A stretch of 9,184 bases of DNA, from IMG/VR virus record IMGVR_UViG_2695420589_000017; one strand, 5' to 3'. A program made the translations under genes and the position numbers. Positions 883 through 8,783 of the stretch are shown piece after piece (the stretch's first letter is position 1; every line of letters starts with the position of its first letter). Source of the DNA: a virus. Its lineage: Duplodnaviria; Heunggongvirae; Uroviricota; Caudoviricetes. A model generated the notes under the pieces. That model saw only the letters and a list, made by a program, of their open reading frames with translations, ran no database searches and was not told the origin of the DNA.

Positions 883-1223
883 TTCTCTTTATATGTGTCA
901 ACTATCGAAAAAAATTGAAATGTCTTCTTCTGAGTTCTTATTCTCTGTTTCTTGATTGTTCCAACACCTGATGGTTTATCTATTTGTTTTTAATGAGGTA
1001 ATTCAGGTGACATGCCAAATGACGACATTTTTTGTTGCGTCGCTTAAAAACTCGTGACACGATTTTAAACACTAACGAGCTTCTACGAACCTTAGCGAAC
1101 AAAGCCTTTAGTATGGTTGTGTTTTTAATTTAAGAGGTGAAAAAGAATCTAAGTAATATCCGATCTCATATATCTACAGCTAAGAGAAAAGTTTATATAC
1201 GTAATTTTTATGTAGGTTTTTGT

Positions 1224-1433
1224 ATGCGTGAAATAAATGAAGATCGCGTAATCCGTGAGGATGAATGTCGTAAGTTAACTGGAGTGTGTCGCACTACACG
1301 CTACGAACTGGAGAAAAAAGGGAGCTTTCCGTCTCGCCGTAATCTTGGTGGGCGTTCTGTAGGTTGGCTGCTGTCCGAGGTTATGGAATGGGTTAAAAGC
1401 CGGGATCGCATTAATTCAGGTAAGGCAGCGTAA
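1224..1433 (+). CDS. alpA: AlpA-family phage transcriptional regulator (MerR-like HTH; excisionase/activator type)
   Basis: 69-aa product MREINEDRVIREDECRKLTGVCRTTRYELEKKGSFPSRRNLGGRSVGWLLSEVMEWVKSRDRI has the size and HTH-like pattern of AlpA proteins found beside P4-type integrases. ATG 1224 is preceded by AGG at 1214-1216; the longer GTG-1137 start lacks an RBS (the GTG lies inside GAGGTG). Confidence 0.75.
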   Translation: MREINEDRVIREDECRKLTGVCRTTRYELEKKGSFPSRRNLGGRSVGWLLSEVMEWVKSRDRINSGKAA

Positions 1434-1462
1434 AGGGGAGCATATGACATATAAAACAAAGA

Positions 1463-1478
1463 CGACCGGGGGCGGTCG
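1463..1478 (-). terminator. Candidate rho-independent terminator for the minus-strand unit (hairpin CGACCG-GGGG-CGGTCG followed on the minus strand by a U-rich tract)
   Basis: 6-bp GC stem with 4-nt loop at 1463-1478. The minus-strand transcript continues into UCUUUGUUUUAUAU (reverse complement of 1447-1460). No T-run follows on the plus strand, so it is not a good terminator for alpA. Confidence 0.35.
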
Positions 1479-1547
1479 CCAATGGATACACACTAAACTT
1501 GAACGCATCACCAACAATGCCACATTTGCGGCTGGTGGGCAATGTGA

Positions 1548-1721
1548 TCAGTCAGATTTTGTTCGTTCCAAGGTTTGCAACGAGAGCTTTTTCCTGTGCT
1601 CTTTAAGGAATTTCTCAAGAGCAAAAGCACATGGCGCGAATCTTTCTGATTCATGCTCTATCTTTCTGCGCCGTCTTTTCCGTGCCGGTGATAATGTTTT
1701 GGTCAATTCTTTATCGGTCAT
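1548..1721 (-). CDS. Hypothetical small basic protein (57 aa; MTDKELTKTLSPARKRRRRKIEHESERF...)
   Basis: Minus-strand ORF downstream of the 101-aa gene. The internal ATG (minus-strand coordinate 1721) is preceded by AGGA with about 7-nt spacing; the longer ATG at 1736 is an alternative. Lys/Arg-rich product and a plausible terminator 70 nt downstream. Short, so coding status is uncertain. Confidence 0.35.
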   Translation of the reverse strand: MTDKELTKTLSPARKRRRRKIEHESERFAPCAFALEKFLKEHRKKLSLQTLERTKSD

Positions 1722-1778
1722 TGTGTTGTCCTGCATAGCAATGCGCCGTAATACCTTACACCACGGCGCTGATGGTGA

Positions 1779-2084
1779 TTACTCTGGTTCTTTGGTCTTG
1801 CGACGCTGGAGTTCTTCGCGTGCAACGGTGACAAGCTGCCCGATTTCTTCCGCTGCTTTGATGCCGATTTGTTCGACCTTAGCCAGGGCATCCAGTGACG
1901 ACACAAGGGGATTTTCTCCGCTGCCTTCTGCTTGGCGGCGGGCTATTTCTCCGCGCATGGCGGTTACGATAAATCCGGCATTGCTTTCGCCGTCCAGCTT
2001 AACGGATTCCATCCCTTGCATAACATCTAGTGGGACTCTGACAGTTGTCAGTTGTGATTTTGCGTTTTTGTTAGCCGTTGCCAT
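1779..2084 (-). CDS. Hypothetical 101-aa protein, putative ribbon-helix-helix (Arc/CopG-like) transcriptional regulator
   Basis: ATG at minus 2084 preceded by AGGAG (reverse complement of 2093-2097) with 8-nt spacing. N-terminal segment TTVRVPLDVMQGMESVKLDGESNAGFIVTAMRGEI fits a beta-strand/helix/helix pattern typical of RHH repressors (inference from pattern only). Transcribed divergently from the early operon, next to a palindromic operator. Confidence 0.6.
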   Translation of the reverse strand: MATANKNAKSQLTTVRVPLDVMQGMESVKLDGESNAGFIVTAMRGEIARRQAEGSGENPLVSSLDALAKVEQIGIKAAEEIGQLVTVAREELQRRKTKEPE

Positions 2085-2145
2085 TTCTGAAACTCCTAAT
2101 CATCGGTGTGTTTCAGTATACACAAAAAAAGAAATACAAAAAGCC

Positions 2146-2183
2146 TTGACGTGTGTTTCATGCGCTCATAACATGAAACACAC
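2146..2183 (+). promoter_or_regulatory. Putative sigma70 early promoter (-35 TTGACG 2146-2151, 17-bp spacer, -10 TAACAT 2169-2174) overlapped by a perfect 12-bp inverted repeat operator GTGTGTTTCATG-N9-CATGAAACACAC (2151-2162 / 2172-2183)
   Basis: Read directly from sequence. The palindrome arms are exact reverse complements. A third direct copy of the half-site GTGTGTTTCA lies at 2106-2115 on the side of the leftward gene. Confidence 0.45.
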
Positions 2184-2281
2184 CGAAAGGATTGTTGAAA
2201 TACAAAGAGCAACGCCCCGCAGTGCCGGAAACACATACGGGGCGTCTAACCACCAACGATAACGAGAGTATCGAGGCAGCT

Positions 2282-2485
2282 ATGAGAAATCATACCATAC
2301 ACCCGCAAGGGCGGGACTCGTACAACCTGAATAAATACATCTGGCGTTTTATCGCCCTGAGCACGGCACAACCGCGCGTGATTACCATTGAGGCCAGCAG
2401 CGAACAGGAAGCACGCCAGCAATCCCCGGCTGGCTGCGTGATGGTATTCGCCGCCCGTATTCGTCAGGGGGGGTGCCATGCCTGA
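2282..2485 (+). CDS. Icd/Kil-like small protein (host cell-division inhibitor-like, P4 family), 67 aa
   Basis: ATG 2282 with GAGG at 2273-2276 (5-nt spacing). Product MRNHTIHPQGRDSYNLNKYIWRFIALSTAQPRVITIEASSEQEARQQSPAGCVMVFAARIRQGG matches my recollection of the Icd-like pattern (F.A....PRVI.IEA...EAR....FAAR..QGG) found as first gene of P4-type early operons; not verified by alignment. The upstream TTG-2192 extension has no usable RBS spacing. Confidence 0.55.
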   Translation: MRNHTIHPQGRDSYNLNKYIWRFIALSTAQPRVITIEASSEQEARQQSPAGCVMVFAARIRQGGCHA

Positions 2486-2798
2486 TATGTCAAATTACCA
2501 GTACCTGATTAATCCGCATTTTAACTGTGAGCATGATATTGCTAAAAAGGTTTATTCCGCTGCGGATGGGGCTACTGACAATATATCAATGGCTGTTGCG
2601 TCAATTGGTAGCCTGATGTGGCATGCGTCAGAAAATGAGGACTATGACGAAAAGGCCATGCGCATTGATATGGGTAATATCGGTTTGTTACTGGCAATGC
2701 TTGGACATTTTGATATTTCGTTACGGTGCACCATTGAAAATGCCACAGATGCATTAAATGCTATAAAGAAAGCGAATACTGATTCAAATCGGGGATAA
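2478..2798 (+). CDS. Hypothetical protein, 106 aa, no recognisable motif
   Basis: ATG 2478 overlaps the stop of the upstream gene (2483-2485) and follows a G-rich RBS-like tract. Acidic, compact, in operon with the replication gene. No motif I can assign. Confidence 0.6.
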   Translation: MPDMSNYQYLINPHFNCEHDIAKKVYSAADGATDNISMAVASIGSLMWHASENEDYDEKAMRIDMGNIGLLLAMLGHFDISLRCTIENATDALNAIKKANTDSNRG

Positions 2799-2804
2799 AT
2801 AATC

Positions 2805-3104
2805 ATGAGAACGTATTTATCTGGCTTGACTGCCAGCGGTTATGCACACCCCCAAATTATCCCCGGCGCTATTTATCTGGATAAGAACGGTAACAGAGTA
2901 ACGGTAAAAGAACTGATGTTTGACCGTGTGTATTTTATCCGTGATGGCTATTCATTTCTTAGTTCGCTGAACGTGGAGATCTTTATTAGCAGATTCAGTC
3001 GGGAAATCCCGCTTTCCAGAAATAACCATGTGTCATGTATGGATGTTGATAAAAAACTACAGGAACTAAAAAACATGATTGCCGCGTGGAGAGAGCAGAA
3101 ATGA
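2805..3104 (+). CDS. Hypothetical protein, 99 aa, no recognisable motif
   Basis: ATG 2805 is 6 nt after the upstream stop; its own stop (3102-3104) overlaps the ATG of the helicase gene (ATGA), indicating translational coupling. Confidence 0.6.
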   Translation: MRTYLSGLTASGYAHPQIIPGAIYLDKNGNRVTVKELMFDRVYFIRDGYSFLSSLNVEIFISRFSREIPLSRNNHVSCMDVDKKLQELKNMIAAWREQK

Positions 3105-4891
3105 AAAAAGCGCCAAATTTAAAACACCAGCCGCGTGACAAAATGACGGAAGTCATCATTTTTGCGGGTAGTGATGCGTGGGCACATGCGAAACAGTGGC
3201 AGGAACAGGACGGGCGACTGGCTGGCGATAACGTGCCACCTGTCTGGCTTGGAGAGCAACAACTTGCCGAACTGGACAACCTGCAAATCGTACCGGACGG
3301 ACGCTATCGCGTGCGTCTCTATCAGGCGGGGTTATTGCGTCCGGGGCTTGTTAATACCATCGGGCAGAAACTGGCAGTGGCAGGTGTCAGGGATGCTGAT
3401 TATTACCCTGAAGGAATGCACAGCCAGAAACGGGAGAACTGGCGCGAATATCTGGAACGTGAACGGGCAGAGCAGGCGGAAAAGAAAAAGGTAGTTGAAC
3501 TGCCTGTAAAGAAAAAAGAGCGGGTAAAAGACGATAACGCTTCATCACTGGCGCTTAACCAGATGGGAGCAAGTCAACGCGGCGAAGTTCTCCTGGCACA
3601 TTATGGCGGTGAACTGGCGATTCATGCTGACTCTGACACTGTTCACCATTACAACGGCGTTGTATGGGAGCCAGTACAGGATAAAGAATTACAGCGAGCT
3701 ATGGCACAGATTTTCATTGATGCGGAGATCAGCTATTCGCAGAACGCCATTAAATCGGCGGTCGATACCATGAAGTTAAGTTTGCCTGTAATGGGGAATA
3801 CAGCCCGTAACCTGATTGGATTCAGTAACGGGGTATTTGATACCAGAACAGGTAATTTTCGGGAGCATAACAAAAACGACTGGTTGTTAATTGCCAGTGA
3901 ATTACCTTTCAGCCCACCAGCAGAGGGGGAAACGCTGGCAACACATGCGCCGAATTTCTGGAAGTGGTTACGCCGTTCGGTGGCTGAGAATGACCGCAAG
4001 GCGGATCGCGTACTGGCTGTATTATTCATGGTGCTGGCGAACCGGTACGACTGGCAGTTATTCATTGAGGTAACAGGTCCAGGGGGAAGTGGTAAAAGCG
4101 TGATGGCGGAGATTTGCACCATGCTGGCGGGTAAGGCCAACACAGTATCGGCAAGCATGAAGGCGCTGGAAGATGCAAGGGAACGCGCGTTAGTGGTTGG
4201 CTTTTCGCTGATTATCATGCCGGATATGACCCGCTACGCTGGTGATGGGGCAGGGATTAAGGCCATTACAGGCGGTGACAAGGTGGCAATTGACCCGAAA
4301 CACAAAGCCCCCTACTCAACGCGTATTCCGGCAGTAGTGCTGGCGGTTAACAATAACGCCATGTCATTCAGTGACCGCAGCGGGGGGATCTCACGTCGTC
4401 GGGTGATATTCAATTTTTCGGAAGTTGTACCGGAGAACGAACGCGACCCCATGCTGGCAGAAAAAATAGAAGGAGAGCTGGCGGTTGTGATTCGCCACCT
4501 GCTTACTCGTTTTTCTGACCAGGACGAAGCTAAACGCCTGCTGTATGAGCAGCAGAAATCAGAAGAAGCTCTGGTGATAAAACGCGAGGGCGATTCGCTG
4601 GTGGACTTCTGCGGCTATCTCATGTCGTCGGTAATGTGTGATGGTCTGTTAGTGGGTAATGCCGAAATTATTCCGTTCAGTCCGCGCAGGTATCTTTATC
4701 ACGCCTATCTGGCATATATGAGGGCACACGGATTCGGTAAACCTGTAACACTGACGCGCTTCGGTAAAGATATGCCGGGGGCAATGGCGGAATATGGCAG
4801 GGAGTATATGAAACGGAAAACGAAGCACGGTTTGCGTTCAAATGTGACCCTGACAGAGGATTCAGAAGACTGGATGCCATCATGTGCATAG
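3101..4891 (+). CDS. Replication protein: P4 alpha-like / D5-family SF3 helicase with origin-binding C-terminus (phage/plasmid primase P4-family C-terminal domain); N-terminal primase domain not evident
   Basis: 596-aa frame; ATG 3101 with GGAGAGAG 5 nt upstream. Walker A motif EVTGPGGSGKSV followed by a hydrophobic stretch ending in D (LIIMPDM). Overall size and layout match P4-family helicase-type replication proteins. Iterons lie immediately downstream. Confidence 0.85.
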   Translation: MKKAPNLKHQPRDKMTEVIIFAGSDAWAHAKQWQEQDGRLAGDNVPPVWLGEQQLAELDNLQIVPDGRYRVRLYQAGLLRPGLVNTIGQKLAVAGVRDADYYPEGMHSQKRENWREYLERERAEQAEKKKVVELPVKKKERVKDDNASSLALNQMGASQRGEVLLAHYGGELAIHADSDTVHHYNGVVWEPVQDKELQRAMAQIFIDAEISYSQNAIKSAVDTMKLSLPVMGNTARNLIGFSNGVFDTRTGNFREHNKNDWLLIASELPFSPPAEGETLATHAPNFWKWLRRSVAENDRKADRVLAVLFMVLANRYDWQLFIEVTGPGGSGKSVMAEICTMLAGKANTVSASMKALEDARERALVVGFSLIIMPDMTRYAGDGAGIKAITGGDKVAIDPKHKAPYSTRIPAVVLAVNNNAMSFSDRSGGISRRRVIFNFSEVVPENERDPMLAEKIEGELAVVIRHLLTRFSDQDEAKRLLYEQQKSEEALVIKREGDSLVDFCGYLMSSVMCDGLLVGNAEIIPFSPRRYLYHAYLAYMRAHGFGKPVTLTRFGKDMPGAMAEYGREYMKRKTKHGLRSNVTLTEDSEDWMPSCA

Positions 4892-4929
4892 GTCACAAAT
4901 GACGATGGAAAAAATTAAACTTATGGAAT

Positions 4930-5154
4930 AACTGTTCACCACTGTTCACCCTGCAATAAATGTCTTTTATATCAGTATATTATAGGGTGAACAGTTATTT
5001 ATGAACTGTTCACCAAACTATTCACTGTTCACCTTTTTGATTCTTTATTGAGCTTTAAGGGTGAACAGTGGTGAACAGTTGGTGAATAGTTTTTGTGAAA
5101 CTGTTAACCCATTAACATCATGAATAAAAAGGGAAAATTGCAAAAGGTGAACAG
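4930..5154. repeat. Iteron array / putative replication origin (ori or crr-like): at least 8 perfect copies of CTGTTCACC / GGTGAACAG in both orientations plus degenerate copies, with an AT-rich segment at 4956-4985
   Basis: Perfect 9-mers at 4932-4940, 4942-4950, 5006-5014, 5025-5033 (forward) and 4986-4994, 5060-5068, 5070-5078, 5146-5154 (reverse); degenerate copies at 5081-5089 and 5101-5109. The core contains TGTTCACC, which I recall as the type I iteron bound by P4 alpha protein. Confidence 0.75.
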
Positions 5155-5205
5155 GTGAAGGGTTAAAATGCAAAAATTTTATTTTATTGCTGTGAGGTAA
5201 AGCCT

Positions 5206-5919: not shown

Positions 5920-6214
5920 NNNNNNNNNNNNNNNNNNNNNNNNNNNNNNNNNNNNNNNNNNNNNNNNNNNNNNNNNNNNNNNNNNNNNNNNNNNNNNNNN
6001 NNNNNNNNNNNNNNNNNNNNNNNNNNNNNNNNNNNNNNNNNNNNNNNNNNNNNNNNNNNNNNNNNNNNNNNNNNNNNNNNNNNNNNNNNNNNNNNNNNNN
6101 NNNNNNNNNNNNNNNNNNNNNNNNNNNNNNNNNNNNNNNNNNNNNNNNNNNNNNNNNNNNNNNNNNNNNNNNNNNNNNNNNNNNNNNNNNNNNNNNNNNN
6201 NNNNNNNNNNNNNN
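5920..6214. other. Run of 295 N (unresolved or masked sequence; true length unknown)
   Basis: Directly visible; no flanking repeat. Confidence 1.
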
Positions 6215-8588: not shown

Positions 8589-8783
8589 AACGCATTTTTG
8601 TGGTTTTATCGTCATCATCATCATGTGTGTAACCTGTTGTTTTTANNNNNNNNNNNNNNNNNNNNNNNNNNNNNNNNNNNNNNNNNNNNNNNNNNNNNNN
8701 NNNNNNNNNNNNNNNNNNNNNNNNNNAACGCATTTTTGTGGTTTTATCGTCATCATCATCATGTGTGTAACCTGTTGTTTTTA
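8589..8783. repeat. Two identical 57-nt direct repeats (8589-8645 and 8727-8783) flanking an 81-nt N run
   Basis: AACGCATTTTTGTGGTTTTATCGTCATCATCATCATGTGTGTAACCTGTTGTTTTTA occurs identically on both sides of the N run; it contains a (CAT)4 tract. Confidence 0.9.
8646..8726. other. Run of 81 N (unresolved or masked sequence)
   Basis: Directly visible. Confidence 1.

What the first reader, a model, noticed from the sequence alone, without database searches (positions are those of the whole stretch)
2106..2183. Perfect 12-bp palindromic operator overlapping the early promoter, with a third half-site toward the divergent gene
GTGTGTTTCATG-N9-CATGAAACACAC (2151-2183) is an exact inverted repeat sitting on top of a plausible -35/-10 pair for the rightward operon, and a direct copy of the half-site GTGTGTTTCA lies at 2106-2115 next to the leftward gene. 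This is a classic switch-region architecture and probably the control point that keeps the satellite silent until a helper phage is induced.
Basis: seen in the sequence. Interest (0 to 1): 0.55.

Follow-up and report, generated by a model that had tools for sequence, protein, structure and literature searches.

The report
Satellite repressor operators at divergent promoters
The palindrome is real and is one of two paired binding sites for a small, uncharacterised DNA-binding protein encoded next door, and together they give phage satellites of E. coli, including the laboratory prototype, a candidate repressor switch that had been overlooked.

Summary
GTGTGTTTCATG-N9-CATGAAACACAC (2151-2183) is exact and is the longest perfect inverted repeat in the window. 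It brackets the -10 of the only sigma-70-like rightward promoter nearby. The "third half-site" (2106-2115) pairs with a degenerate inverted copy (2130-2139). That gives four sites about 23 bp apart, mirrored around two back-to-back promoters.

In 25 related loci from about 10 genera the site positions are kept, but the site sequence changes together with the N-terminal beta-strand of the divergent 101-aa YlcI/YnfO-family protein. This protein is predicted to have a ribbon-helix-helix fold. The site sequence does not track AlpA, the Icd-like protein or orf62.

Searches with DNA patterns alone for three operator types recovered the matching beta-strand type next door in 115 of 129 contigs. Matches were never to another type.

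A roughly 240-bp "specificity cassette" (protein residues 1-41 plus the operators) is swapped between otherwise near-identical elements.

The prototype satellite EcCICFT073 carries the same module, although the literature calls these elements unidirectional and without a known repressor.

Best reading: an Mnt/Arc-like autoregulated repressor of the early (Icd-like/replication) operon. Binding is well supported. Repression is inferred. Any link to helper-phage induction is untested, and AlpA is the known trigger.

The parts
2151..2183 (.). O_R, the strong operator. It has two inverted sites (O3 2151-2162, O4 2172-2183; conserved cores GTGTGTTTC 2151-2159 and GAAACACAC 2175-2183) that bracket the -10 of the rightward promoter.
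   Evidence: Exact 12-bp inverted repeat. Longest in the window, reached in 1% of simulations. The cores are conserved and the spacer is free in E. coli, Xenorhabdus and Photorhabdus relatives. The sequence covaries with the neighbouring protein's beta-strand.
2103..2115 (+). O1, the site next to the leftward gene (TCGGTGTGTTTCA). It lies just downstream of the putative leftward -10 and over the predicted leftward start.
   Evidence: 13-nt exact reverse complement of 2174-2186. Present at -39 to -43 relative to the -35 in nearly all of the related loci where the scan resolved a repeated site, with a class-specific sequence. Present in 48 of 48 IMG/VR contigs of this operator type that encode a YlcI-like neighbour.
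2130..2139 (-). O2, a degenerate inverted site (AGAAATACAA; 7 of 10 matches to TGAAACACAC). It pairs with O1 to form the weaker operator O_L.
   Evidence: Found at about -15 relative to the -35 in the four-site classes, and its sequence changes with the class: GTCTTACA in the SLTARI class, AAATCACA in the QISIRI class, GAATACC in the QLNARF class.
2146..2174 (+). P_R, the rightward early promoter: -35 TTGACG (2146-2151), 17-bp spacer, -10 TAACAT (2169-2174). Predicted start ~2181.
   Evidence: The only + strand sigma-70-like match in 1000-3200. The -35 reads TTGAC in most related loci, and a -10-like hexamer sits at a fixed distance. The transcription start has not been mapped.
2115..2120 (-). 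Putative -10 of the leftward promoter P_L (TATACT on the - strand). There is no good -35. Predicted start ~2108, inside O1.
   Evidence: TATACT, TATAAT or TATATT is conserved at this position across operator classes. It did not pass the promoter scan's criteria, so it remains an inference.
1779..2084 (-). Gene for the 101-aa YlcI/YnfO-family protein. It has a predicted N-terminal ribbon-helix-helix domain (residues ~9-54) and a C-terminal long helix (59-98), and is the proposed operator-binding repressor.
1961..2200 (.). Swappable specificity cassette: codons ~1-41 of the 101-aa protein plus both promoters and all four operator sites.
   Evidence: In 40-nt identity profiles against L015, L026 and L018, this stretch stays at 50-70% identity. 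In each comparison a segment within about 100 nt on at least one side is 80-100% identical, and the longer flanks reach 95-100% in L015 (right) and L018 (left). Against L015 the protein's N-terminal half is 56% identical and the C-terminal half 92%.
1548..1736 (-). orf62, a small basic protein of unknown function, co-oriented with and downstream of the 101-aa gene. Probably in the same leftward transcript.
   Evidence: phrog_21027. A 57-aa homologue sits in the same position in EcCICFT073. It does not track operator type.
1461..1480 (-). Terminator-like hairpin with a T-run on the - strand, at the end of the leftward unit. It has no T-run on the + strand.
   Evidence: Terminator scan and the sequence itself.
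2212..2273 (+). Conserved structured leader of the rightward transcript: hairpin 1 (2212-2219 / 2238-2245), a nearly invariant TCTAACC-type linker (the two central bases vary), and hairpin 2 (2257-2261 / 2269-2273) abutting the Shine-Dalgarno GAGG (2273-2276).
   Evidence: RNAalifold on 16 diverse loci gave 13 pairs, 8 of them with compensatory changes. No Rfam family matches, including C4 and isrK.
2282..2485 (+). First gene of the controlled operon, an Icd-like 67-aa protein. It is followed by orf106, DUF4222 and the D5-type primase/helicase (3086-4891).
   Evidence: NF033153 phage_ICD_like, phrog_6196, Pfam hits for the downstream genes, RefSeq annotation of a 99.4% identical locus.

Best explanation
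The window is part of a Gram-negative phage-inducible chromosomal island (PICI-type satellite). Positions 2103-2183 form a four-site operator array arranged in mirror symmetry around two back-to-back promoters. The leftward gene (1779-2084) encodes a 101-aa YlcI/YnfO-family protein with a predicted ribbon-helix-helix N-terminal domain. Dimers of this protein are proposed to bind each ~10-bp site (conserved GGTGT plus a variable 5-6 bp) through the N-terminal beta-ribbon. Neighbouring dimers, 23-25 bp apart on roughly the same face of the helix, may be bridged by the C-terminal helix.

Occupancy of the perfect pair O3/O4 would cover the spacer, the end of the -10 and the start site of a near-consensus promoter. 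This would shut off the Icd-like/DUF4222/primase operon. Occupancy of the weaker pair O1/O2 would limit the protein's own synthesis (autoregulation).

The DNA-binding half of the protein and its operators evolve and recombine as one ~240-bp cassette. This gives different elements different specificities, like phage immunity regions.

Shown computationally: the sites exist, their positions are conserved, they covary with the protein's beta-strand, and they do not track AlpA, the Icd-like protein or orf62. Inferred: physical binding, the repressive sign of regulation, tetramer bridging and autoregulation. Unknown: how repression is lifted. The likeliest link is the helper-induced activator AlpA, encoded upstream and convergent with the repressor gene. 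It could act by read-through or transcriptional interference, or directly at P_R.
For: 1. Sequence. The inverted repeat is exact, a third exact copy exists, and all exact copies lie within 80 bp. An arm this long arises in 1% of simulations.

2. Promoter overlap. The -35 is near-consensus and conserved across loci. Such a promoter needs a repressor rather than an activator.

3. Architecture. In 25 related loci from E. coli, Xenorhabdus, Photorhabdus, Enterobacter, Klebsiella, Edwardsiella, Serratia, Erwinia, Pantoea, Phytobacter and Cronobacter, sites lie at about -40, -15, +6 and +29 relative to the -35. The spacers diverge freely.

4. Covariation of beta-strand residues 12-17 with the site core:
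- LTTVRV pairs with GTGTGTTTC.
- SLTARI pairs with GTGTAAGAC.
- QISIRI pairs with GTGTGATTC.
- LKNIRI and VKNVRI pair with GTGTGTATT.
- IKNVRV pairs with GTGTGCATT.
- MKNIRF pairs with GTGTGTAC and GCACAC.
- ALKARV pairs with GTGGGCCACAC.

5. Natural swaps. L026 has AlpA 97% identical and the Icd domain 89% identical, yet a different operator and a 56%-identical N-terminal domain. The Xenorhabdus and Photorhabdus loci have AlpA at most ~30% identical where detectable, with no detectable Icd or orf62 similarity, yet the same operator and the same beta-strand. L018 has orf62 97% identical with a different operator.

6. Cassette boundaries lie at about 1961-2200.

7. Blind prediction test. Three DNA-only operator patterns searched in IMG/VR returned 51, 64 and 14 contigs. 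Of these, 48, 54 and 13 encode a YlcI-like neighbour. All of them carry the class-matching strand, except two class-B hits in which no strand motif could be read, and none carries another class's strand.

8. Class-specific 11-mers occur only in this intergenic region.

Against: There is no experimental evidence of binding, repression or transcription starts.

The RHH assignment is moderate. Mean pLDDT is 79 and about 59 over the first 10 residues. No Pfam RHH family reaches its threshold. hhalign against Arc and Mnt is not significant, and the Foldseek PDB search gave nothing.

The beta-strand is not the only determinant of specificity. QLNARF proteins sit next to GGTATTCAC (L017) or GTGCGATTCA (L027).

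Orientation of the two middle sites is flipped in the 'KN' classes, and L027 lacks a canonical O4, so the geometry is not uniform.

In EcCICFT073, which carries the same module, AlpA over-expression alone induces replication and deleting alpA abolishes induction (PMC6092414). Whatever this protein does, it is not by itself the helper-sensing lock.

Many of the IMG/VR contigs are near-identical copies, so the counts overstate the number of independent events.

P_L did not pass the promoter scan.
Confidence: 0.7

Rival explanations
1. The sites are bound by the same RHH protein, but they serve a purpose other than promoter repression. They could be a centromere-like or partition site, or a packaging-accessory site, as with the ParG, omega or ParB-C-terminal RHH proteins. 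Alternatively the protein could activate P_R or P_L.
For: The best sub-threshold Pfam hit among family members is CB_ParB_C, a centromere-binding RHH (E 2.7e-4; 4 members). Arrays of sites in variable orientation are typical of omega-type proteins (general knowledge). Related satellites such as P4 can exist as plasmids (PMC6092414).
Against: The sites keep a fixed register with the -35, the -10 and the start site of a near-consensus promoter in every class. This geometry is what repression predicts and is not needed for a centromere. No partition ATPase is encoded nearby. The paper states that PICIs have no plasmid state.
Confidence: 0.1
2. The repeats are binding sites for a protein encoded elsewhere, such as a helper-phage repressor or antirepressor or a host factor. 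Their covariation with the neighbouring gene would then reflect linkage only.
For: The helper phage is known to control induction of these elements. Covariation in linked DNA can arise from shared history.
Against: Several operator types coexist in one host species, E. coli, which excludes a host factor. The swapped cassette is only ~240 bp and contains exactly the N-terminal domain plus the sites. The same site and strand pairing recurs in distant genera whose flanks have diverged. No phage in the 50,697-record collection encodes a detectable relative.
Confidence: 0.07
3. The sites are AlpA boxes through which the known activator turns on the early operon.
For: AlpA is the established activator of these elements and activates downstream reporter fusions.
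Against: L026 has AlpA 97% identical to the window's but a different operator type. The Xenorhabdus and Photorhabdus loci have AlpA at most ~30% identical where detectable but the same operator. The sites overlap the core promoter, which is an unusual position for an activator. No copies of the site lie upstream of alpA, which AlpA autoactivates.
Confidence: 0.04
4. The palindrome acts as an RNA or DNA hairpin, such as an attenuator, terminator or processing site, rather than as a protein-binding site.
For: A 12-bp stem with a 9-nt loop would be stable if it were transcribed.
Against: In EcCICFT073 and the 'KN' classes the two promoter-proximal sites are direct repeats, not inverted, so no hairpin is conserved. 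No T-run follows the stem. The predicted start lies inside the right arm, so the stem would not be transcribed from P_R.
Confidence: 0.03

Closest known systems
Phage P22 immI region: the Mnt and Arc ribbon-helix-helix repressors with O_mnt and O_arc between divergent P_mnt and P_ant
   Same: A small RHH repressor is transcribed divergently from the operon it controls. The operator overlaps the core promoter. Mnt has an RHH N-terminal domain plus a C-terminal helical oligomerisation domain. The controlled operon begins with a regulatory or antirepressor-type gene. The beta-strand pattern x-N-x-R-x-P-x-E-V of some family members (QLNARFPHEV) resembles Arc QFNLRWPREV and Mnt HFNFRMPMEV. The Arc and Mnt sequences are from memory, and the register was given by hhalign.
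   Different: No significant sequence similarity was found. There are four sites spaced 23-25 bp apart, rather than one 17-21-bp operator with subsites about 11 bp apart. The whole region is mirror-symmetric over two promoters. The host element is a satellite, not a phage.
Stl/Rpr master repressors of Gram-positive PICIs (SaPIs)
   Same: The position in the element is the same: a divergent regulatory gene between the int side and the replication module, controlling the rightward early operon of a phage satellite (PMC6092414).
   Different: Stl/Rpr are larger helix-turn-helix proteins that are inactivated by binding helper proteins. Here the protein is a ~60-100-aa predicted RHH, helper sensing is known to go through AlpA, and no derepression mechanism is known.
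Phage P1 immI (c4 RNA-icd-ant) and phage P4 immunity (CI RNA), and the 'Bro zone' immunity RNAs reported in Gram-negative PICIs (PMC10111431)
   Same: The first gene of the controlled operon is Icd-like. A conserved, structured ~100-nt leader precedes it. The position between alpA and the replication genes is the same.
   Different: Rfam C4 and isrK do not match here even at E<=10. Control by a protein operator is not part of the P4 scheme. In P1 the operator is bound by the unrelated C1 repressor (general knowledge).
Omega repressor of plasmid pSM19035 and other RHH regulators that read arrays of short repeats
   Same: An RHH dimer binds each short repeat. Arrays occur in direct or inverted orientation over promoters, as seen here between classes (->, <-, ->, <- versus ->, ->, <-, <-) (general knowledge).
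   Different: Omega heptads are contiguous. Here the sites are two helical turns apart.
Lambdoid immunity regions (imm434, imm21 and similar)
   Same: The repressor's DNA-binding specificity and its operators are exchanged together as one mosaic cassette between otherwise similar elements.
   Different: The cassette is far smaller (~240 bp). The exchange point lies inside the repressor gene, so the C-terminal half is shared. The fold is different.

Membership tests
YlcI/YnfO family (NCBIfam NF041551, YlcI_YnfO_N) | Score above the curated cut-off of the family model | tested here: met
   63.2 bits against a cut-off of 30, residues 9-50. RefSeq annotates the identical protein WP_000179579.1 as a YlcI/YnfO family protein.
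Ribbon-helix-helix (MetJ/Arc) superfamily | N-terminal beta-strand followed by two helices | tested here: met
   The AF2 model has extended residues ~7-17 and helices 19-28 and 35-54, with pLDDT 83-89 over residues 11-40.
Ribbon-helix-helix (MetJ/Arc) superfamily | Structural superposition on solved RHH domains | tested here: met
Ribbon-helix-helix (MetJ/Arc) superfamily | Significant sequence match to a curated RHH family (Arc PF03869, RHH_1 PF01402 and others) | tested here: not met
   No Pfam hit reaches its threshold. Across 64 family members there are only sub-threshold hits, although they concentrate on RHH families. hhalign against Arc gives E 0.0039 with probability 8.6%, and against Mnt E 0.046.
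Ribbon-helix-helix (MetJ/Arc) superfamily | Obligate dimer with an antiparallel beta-ribbon inserted in the major groove of repeated sites | not testable with these tools
   Only monomer prediction was available. Indirect support comes from the covariation of strand residues with the site sequence.
Transcriptional operator (repressor-binding site overlapping a promoter) | Repeated sites in fixed register with the -35, the -10 and the start site, conserved while the spacers diverge | tested here: met
Transcriptional operator (repressor-binding site overlapping a promoter) | Demonstrated binding and demonstrated effect on transcription | not testable with these tools
   Requires EMSA or footprinting and reporter assays.
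Gram-negative PICI (EcCICFT073-like satellite) | int, alpA and a primase/replication gene followed by an origin; about 10-15 kb; a phage-free attachment site; few or no virion genes | tested here: met
   Integrase, AlpA (PF05930), D5-type primase, SSB and iterons are present. The 99.4%-identical complete copy is a ~10-kb island between yljB/cspD and clpS. The regulatory module is shared with EcCICFT073 itself. Helper dependence was not tested.
Capsid-forming PICI (cf-PICI) | Own capsid, protease, portal, head-tail connectors, TerS and TerL | tested here: not met
   The complete copy (L001) encodes a ClpP-protease/major-capsid fusion and a DUF1441 protein, but no portal or large terminase.
C4 / isrK / P4 CI immunity RNA | Match to Rfam C4 (RF01695) or isrK | tested here: not met
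   No match in the whole window at E<=1, nor in 2085-2330 at E<=10.

The most novel reading that the evidence does not exclude
YlcI/YnfO-family ribbon-helix-helix proteins are the missing Stl/Rpr-equivalent immunity repressors of Gram-negative PICIs, including the prototype EcCICFT073, where the gene was only added in later re-annotation. Their swappable ~240-bp 'N-terminal domain plus operators' cassettes would define immunity groups of satellites. Helper induction would work by AlpA-driven convergent transcription across the repressor gene, or by helper factors that target the repressor. This would unify the regulatory logic of Gram-positive and Gram-negative PICIs.
Probability: 0.3. Interest if true: 0.75.

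Novelty: new member of a known kind. Interest (0 to 1): 0.58.

Why it matters
The founding paper on Gram-negative PICIs states that a global repressor is 'unclear', that the elements are transcribed unidirectionally, and that it is 'a mystery' why they differ from Gram-positive PICIs (PMC6092414). The module analysed here is a divergently transcribed, uncharacterised small DNA-binding protein with class-specific operators on the early promoter. It is present in the prototype EcCICFT073, and a related module (with a different operator class) is present in an O157:H7 island. The window's own operator type occurs in about 5% of complete E. coli genomes (269 of 5426). Some part of the region matches in about a third of them (1766 of 5426). 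This gives the field a concrete gene to delete and concrete sites to mutate. It also assigns a likely function to the YlcI/YnfO (DUF3950) family. Finally, it offers a compact natural series of matched RHH strand and operator pairs for studying, or engineering, DNA-recognition specificity.

Tried and rejected
- Rfam search of the whole window and of 2085-2330. No C4, isrK or other credible family was found. The miRNA hits at 4991-5104 reflect the inverted iterons of the origin.
- Foldseek of the monomer model against the PDB gave only noise. afdb50 was not available.
- HMM profile and single-sequence searches against PDB sequences found no RHH entry. A weak hit of residues 45-86 to the Hef helix-hairpin-helix domain (E 0.0039) was noted but not pursued.
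- Pfam at relaxed thresholds on three N-terminal domains gave nothing useful.
- hhalign against Arc and Mnt (sequences from memory) put the strands in register but was not significant.
- tblastn of the protein and of its N-terminal domain against 50,697 phage records gave no match, so no evidence of a helper-encoded relative was obtained.
- Degenerate copies at 2196-2205 and 2227-2236 were rejected as operator sites. The corresponding positions are similar in all operator classes (leader sequence and hairpin loop) and do not covary.
- A search for operator copies near alpA or elsewhere in the elements found none.
- Searches of the held paper library found no description of an RHH repressor or YlcI/YnfO function in PICIs.

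Full report
**1. The observation.** GTGTGTTTCATG lies at 2151-2162, followed by nine bases, then CATGAAACACAC at 2172-2183. GTGTGTTTCA occurs again at 2106-2115. The repeat finder extends the third copy to 13 nt: TCGGTGTGTTTCA at 2103-2115 is the exact reverse complement of 2174-2186. The 10-mer occurs exactly three times in the 9184-bp window, all within 80 bp. A perfect 12-bp arm is the longest inverted repeat in the window, and only 2 of 200 composition-matched simulations reached that length. The promoter scan finds TTGACG, a 17-bp spacer and TAACAT at 2146-2174. This is the only rightward sigma-70-like site between 1000 and 3200. The two arms therefore bracket the -10, and the right arm covers the predicted start.

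**2. Context.** The window encodes, in order:
- an integrase (1-804);
- AlpA (1227-1433);
- two leftward small genes, orf62 (1548-1736) and a 101-aa protein (1779-2084);
- a rightward operon: an Icd-like protein, orf106, DUF4222, a D5-type primase/helicase, a small ORF and SSB;
- a ClpP-protease/major-capsid fusion.

A 99.4% identical copy in E. coli XJW9B277 is a ~10-kb island between yljB/cspD and clpS. There RefSeq calls the 101-aa protein a 'YlcI/YnfO family protein'. This is a Gram-negative PICI-type satellite. It lacks a portal and a large terminase, so it is not a capsid-forming PICI.

**3. The array has four sites, not three.** Twenty-five related loci were collected from one genome per species and from contigs that encode diverse homologues. 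Their intergenic regions were anchored on the -35. In the window's class and several others, the most-repeated 8-mer falls at about -40 (+), -15 (-), +6 (+) and +29 (-). In the window these sites are:
- O1, 2106-2115;
- O2, 2130-2139 (AGAAATACAA; degenerate, 7 of 10);
- O3, 2151-2160;
- O4, 2174-2183.

This pair brackets a conserved TATACT, TATAAT or TATATT element on the minus strand (2120-2115), which is a plausible -10 for the leftward gene. That element lacks a good -35 and did not pass the scan.

The whole 2103-2186 region is a large imperfect dyad centred near 2145. It holds a strong operator on the rightward promoter and a weak one on the leftward promoter. In the classes whose strand contains Lys-Asn, the two middle sites have the opposite orientation. 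In EcCICFT073 the two promoter-proximal sites are 12-bp perfect direct repeats. This rules out a conserved hairpin function.

**4. Who binds.** Across loci the site positions are constant, but the site sequence changes. It changes together with residues 12-17 of the neighbouring protein:

| Residues 12-17 | Site core |
|---|---|
| LTTVRV | GTGTGTTTC |
| SLTARI | GTGTAAGAC |
| QISIRI | GTGTGATTC |
| LKNIRI / VKNVRI | GTGTGTATT |
| IKNVRV | GTGTGCATT |
| MKNIRF | GTGTGTAC / GCACAC |
| ALKARV | GTGGGCCACAC |

Within the LTTVRV class, E. coli, Xenorhabdus and Photorhabdus keep the 9-bp cores while the spacer between them diverges freely.

Natural recombinants separate the candidate binders:
- L026 has AlpA 97% identical and the Icd domain 89% identical to the window's, but a different operator type and an N-terminal domain only 56% identical.
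- The Xenorhabdus and Photorhabdus loci have AlpA at most ~30% identical where detectable, and no detectable Icd-like or orf62 similarity, but the same operator and the same strand.
- L018 has orf62 97% identical with a different operator.

Identity profiles against three E. coli relatives put the divergent block at about 1961-2200. That is codons 1-41 of the protein plus all four sites, with more similar sequence close by on one or both sides in each comparison.

As a blind test, three operator patterns were searched as DNA only in IMG/VR:

| Pattern | Contigs with a match | With a YlcI-like neighbour | Strand of the neighbour |
|---|---|---|---|
| Window type | 51 | 48 | LTTVR(V/I); of the other 3 contigs, 1 is truncated and 2 are unrelated |
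| SLTARI type | 64 | 54 | S(L/V)TARI in 52; no motif readable in 2 |
| EcCICFT073 type | 14 | 13 | ALKARV |

No cross-class pairing was seen. Many of these contigs are close copies, so the counts are not independent events. The cross-genus cases are independent. Class-specific 11-mers occur nowhere else in the elements, and in particular not upstream of alpA.

One imperfection remains. QLNARF proteins sit beside two related but different cores, GGTATTCAC in L017 and GTGCGATTCA in L027. Residues outside the strand must therefore also contribute to specificity.

**5. What the protein is.**
- It passes the NCBIfam YlcI_YnfO_N model (63.2 bits against a cut-off of 30).
- AlphaFold2 on a 22-sequence alignment gives an extended N-terminal segment, helices 19-28 and 35-54, and a long helix 59-98 (mean pLDDT 79).
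- No curated RHH Pfam family reaches its threshold. Among 64 family members, however, the sub-threshold hits pile up on RHH families: CB_ParB_C, PSK_trans_fac, RHH_5, RHH_1, TacA1, NikA-like, Arc, HicB-like and CopG_antitoxin.
- hhalign puts the strand in register with Arc's DNA-reading Q-N-R strand, but not significantly.
- The family is small: 74 clusters at 50% identity among 1.84 billion representatives. It comes in a ~60-aa form and a ~100-aa form.
- The short form in EcCICFT073 looks like the long form without residues ~52-93.

I conclude that an RHH fold is likely, though it has not been proven.

**6. Mechanism.** The rightward promoter has a near-consensus, conserved -35, so it should fire unless it is blocked. 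The two best sites cover its spacer, the end of its -10 and its start. The most economical reading is steric repression of the Icd-like/replication operon by the RHH protein, with weaker sites on the protein's own promoter providing autoregulation. The C-terminal helix may bridge dimers bound two helical turns apart, as the C-terminal domain does in Mnt (general knowledge). These steps are inferred.

How repression would be relieved is unknown. For EcCICFT073 the literature shows three things (PMC6092414):
- helper phages switch on alpA;
- AlpA is an activator that is required for induction;
- AlpA over-expression alone triggers replication.

EcCICFT073 carries the same module, so AlpA must act upstream of this switch or override it. 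In the window alpA is convergent with the leftward unit. The hairpin between them has a T-run only on the minus strand. Read-through or transcriptional interference is therefore a testable possibility.

**7. Comparison and novelty.** The closest analogue is the P22 immI region (Mnt/Arc). By position, the protein corresponds to Stl/Rpr of Gram-positive PICIs. The Icd-like first gene and the structured leader recall P1 immI and P4 immunity, but Rfam C4 and isrK do not match.

A repressor with operators at divergent promoters is a familiar kind of system, so I rate this a new member of a known kind. Four things are new:
- a probable function for the YlcI/YnfO family;
- the mirror-symmetric four-site layout;
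- the very compact swappable specificity cassette;
- the presence of the module in the prototype Gram-negative PICI.

On the last point, the literature describes these elements as unidirectionally transcribed and without a known repressor. The EcCICFT073 genes carry out-of-series locus tags, which suggests they were added in re-annotation. Searches of the held paper library found no description of this module.

Noticed in passing
window 2184-2281 (hairpins 2212-2245 and 2257-2273): The ~100-nt leader of the rightward operon is conserved across genera and across operator classes. It has two hairpins, with compensatory changes in 8 of 13 predicted pairs, joined by a nearly invariant TCTAACC-type linker. 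Hairpin 2 abuts the Shine-Dalgarno sequence. No Rfam family matches, including C4 and isrK. It may be an unrecognised regulatory RNA, of immunity, antitermination or translational type, upstream of Icd-like genes.
   Followed up: partly
L029 (NC_004431.1 1380242-1381052): The prototype satellite EcCICFT073 carries the same divergent module: a leftward 57-aa gene and a 59-aa YlcI/YnfO gene, then the Icd-like gene. Their locus tags are out of series. Its operators are two perfect 12-bp direct repeats, GTGGGCCACACC, flanking the -10. The published description calls these elements unidirectional.
   Followed up: partly
window 4927-5155: About ten copies of the iteron ACTGTTCACC, in both orientations, lie just downstream of the primase/helicase gene. 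This is very likely the replication origin. It also explains the spurious Rfam miRNA hits at 4991-5104.
   Followed up: partly
window 1779-2084 (-), residues 52-93 of the protein: The long (~100 aa) and short (~60 aa) forms of the family differ by an internal ~42-residue segment between RRQ and RRK. That segment has a weak match to a helix-hairpin-helix domain (Hef 1x2i, E 0.0039), whereas AF2 models it as one long helix. Its role, oligomerisation or DNA-backbone contact, is open.
   Followed up: no
window 1779-2084 (-), residues 19 and 23: The window's protein has Leu19 and Gln23, where nearly all relatives have His19 and Glu23 (PHDV.E motif). This variant is nevertheless common: 42 of 48 IMG/VR copies of this operator class have PLDV.
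   Followed up: no
window 1548-1736 (-): orf62 is a very basic small protein (RKRRRRK) of unknown function (phrog_21027). It is co-transcribed with the putative repressor and conserved in EcCICFT073, but absent from the Xenorhabdus and Photorhabdus loci.
   Followed up: no
window 5920-6214 and 8646-8726: There are two runs of N (295 and 81 bases). The sequences on either side of the second run repeat each other (…CATCATCATGTGTGTAACCTGTTGTTTTTA…), which suggests a masked or unresolved repeat.
   Followed up: no
L009 and L010 (Xenorhabdus vietnamensis NZ_MUBJ01000038.1): Two copies of the module with the same operator class lie about 4.6 kb apart in opposite orientation on one contig. Elements of the same specificity can therefore be neighbours, which bears on the immunity-group idea.
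   Followed up: no
L015, L016, L026: In some relatives the first gene of the controlled operon is a ~200-260-aa Phage_ASH protein whose C-terminus carries the Icd-like domain, instead of the 67-aa Icd-like protein. The leader and its hairpins are retained.
   Followed up: no
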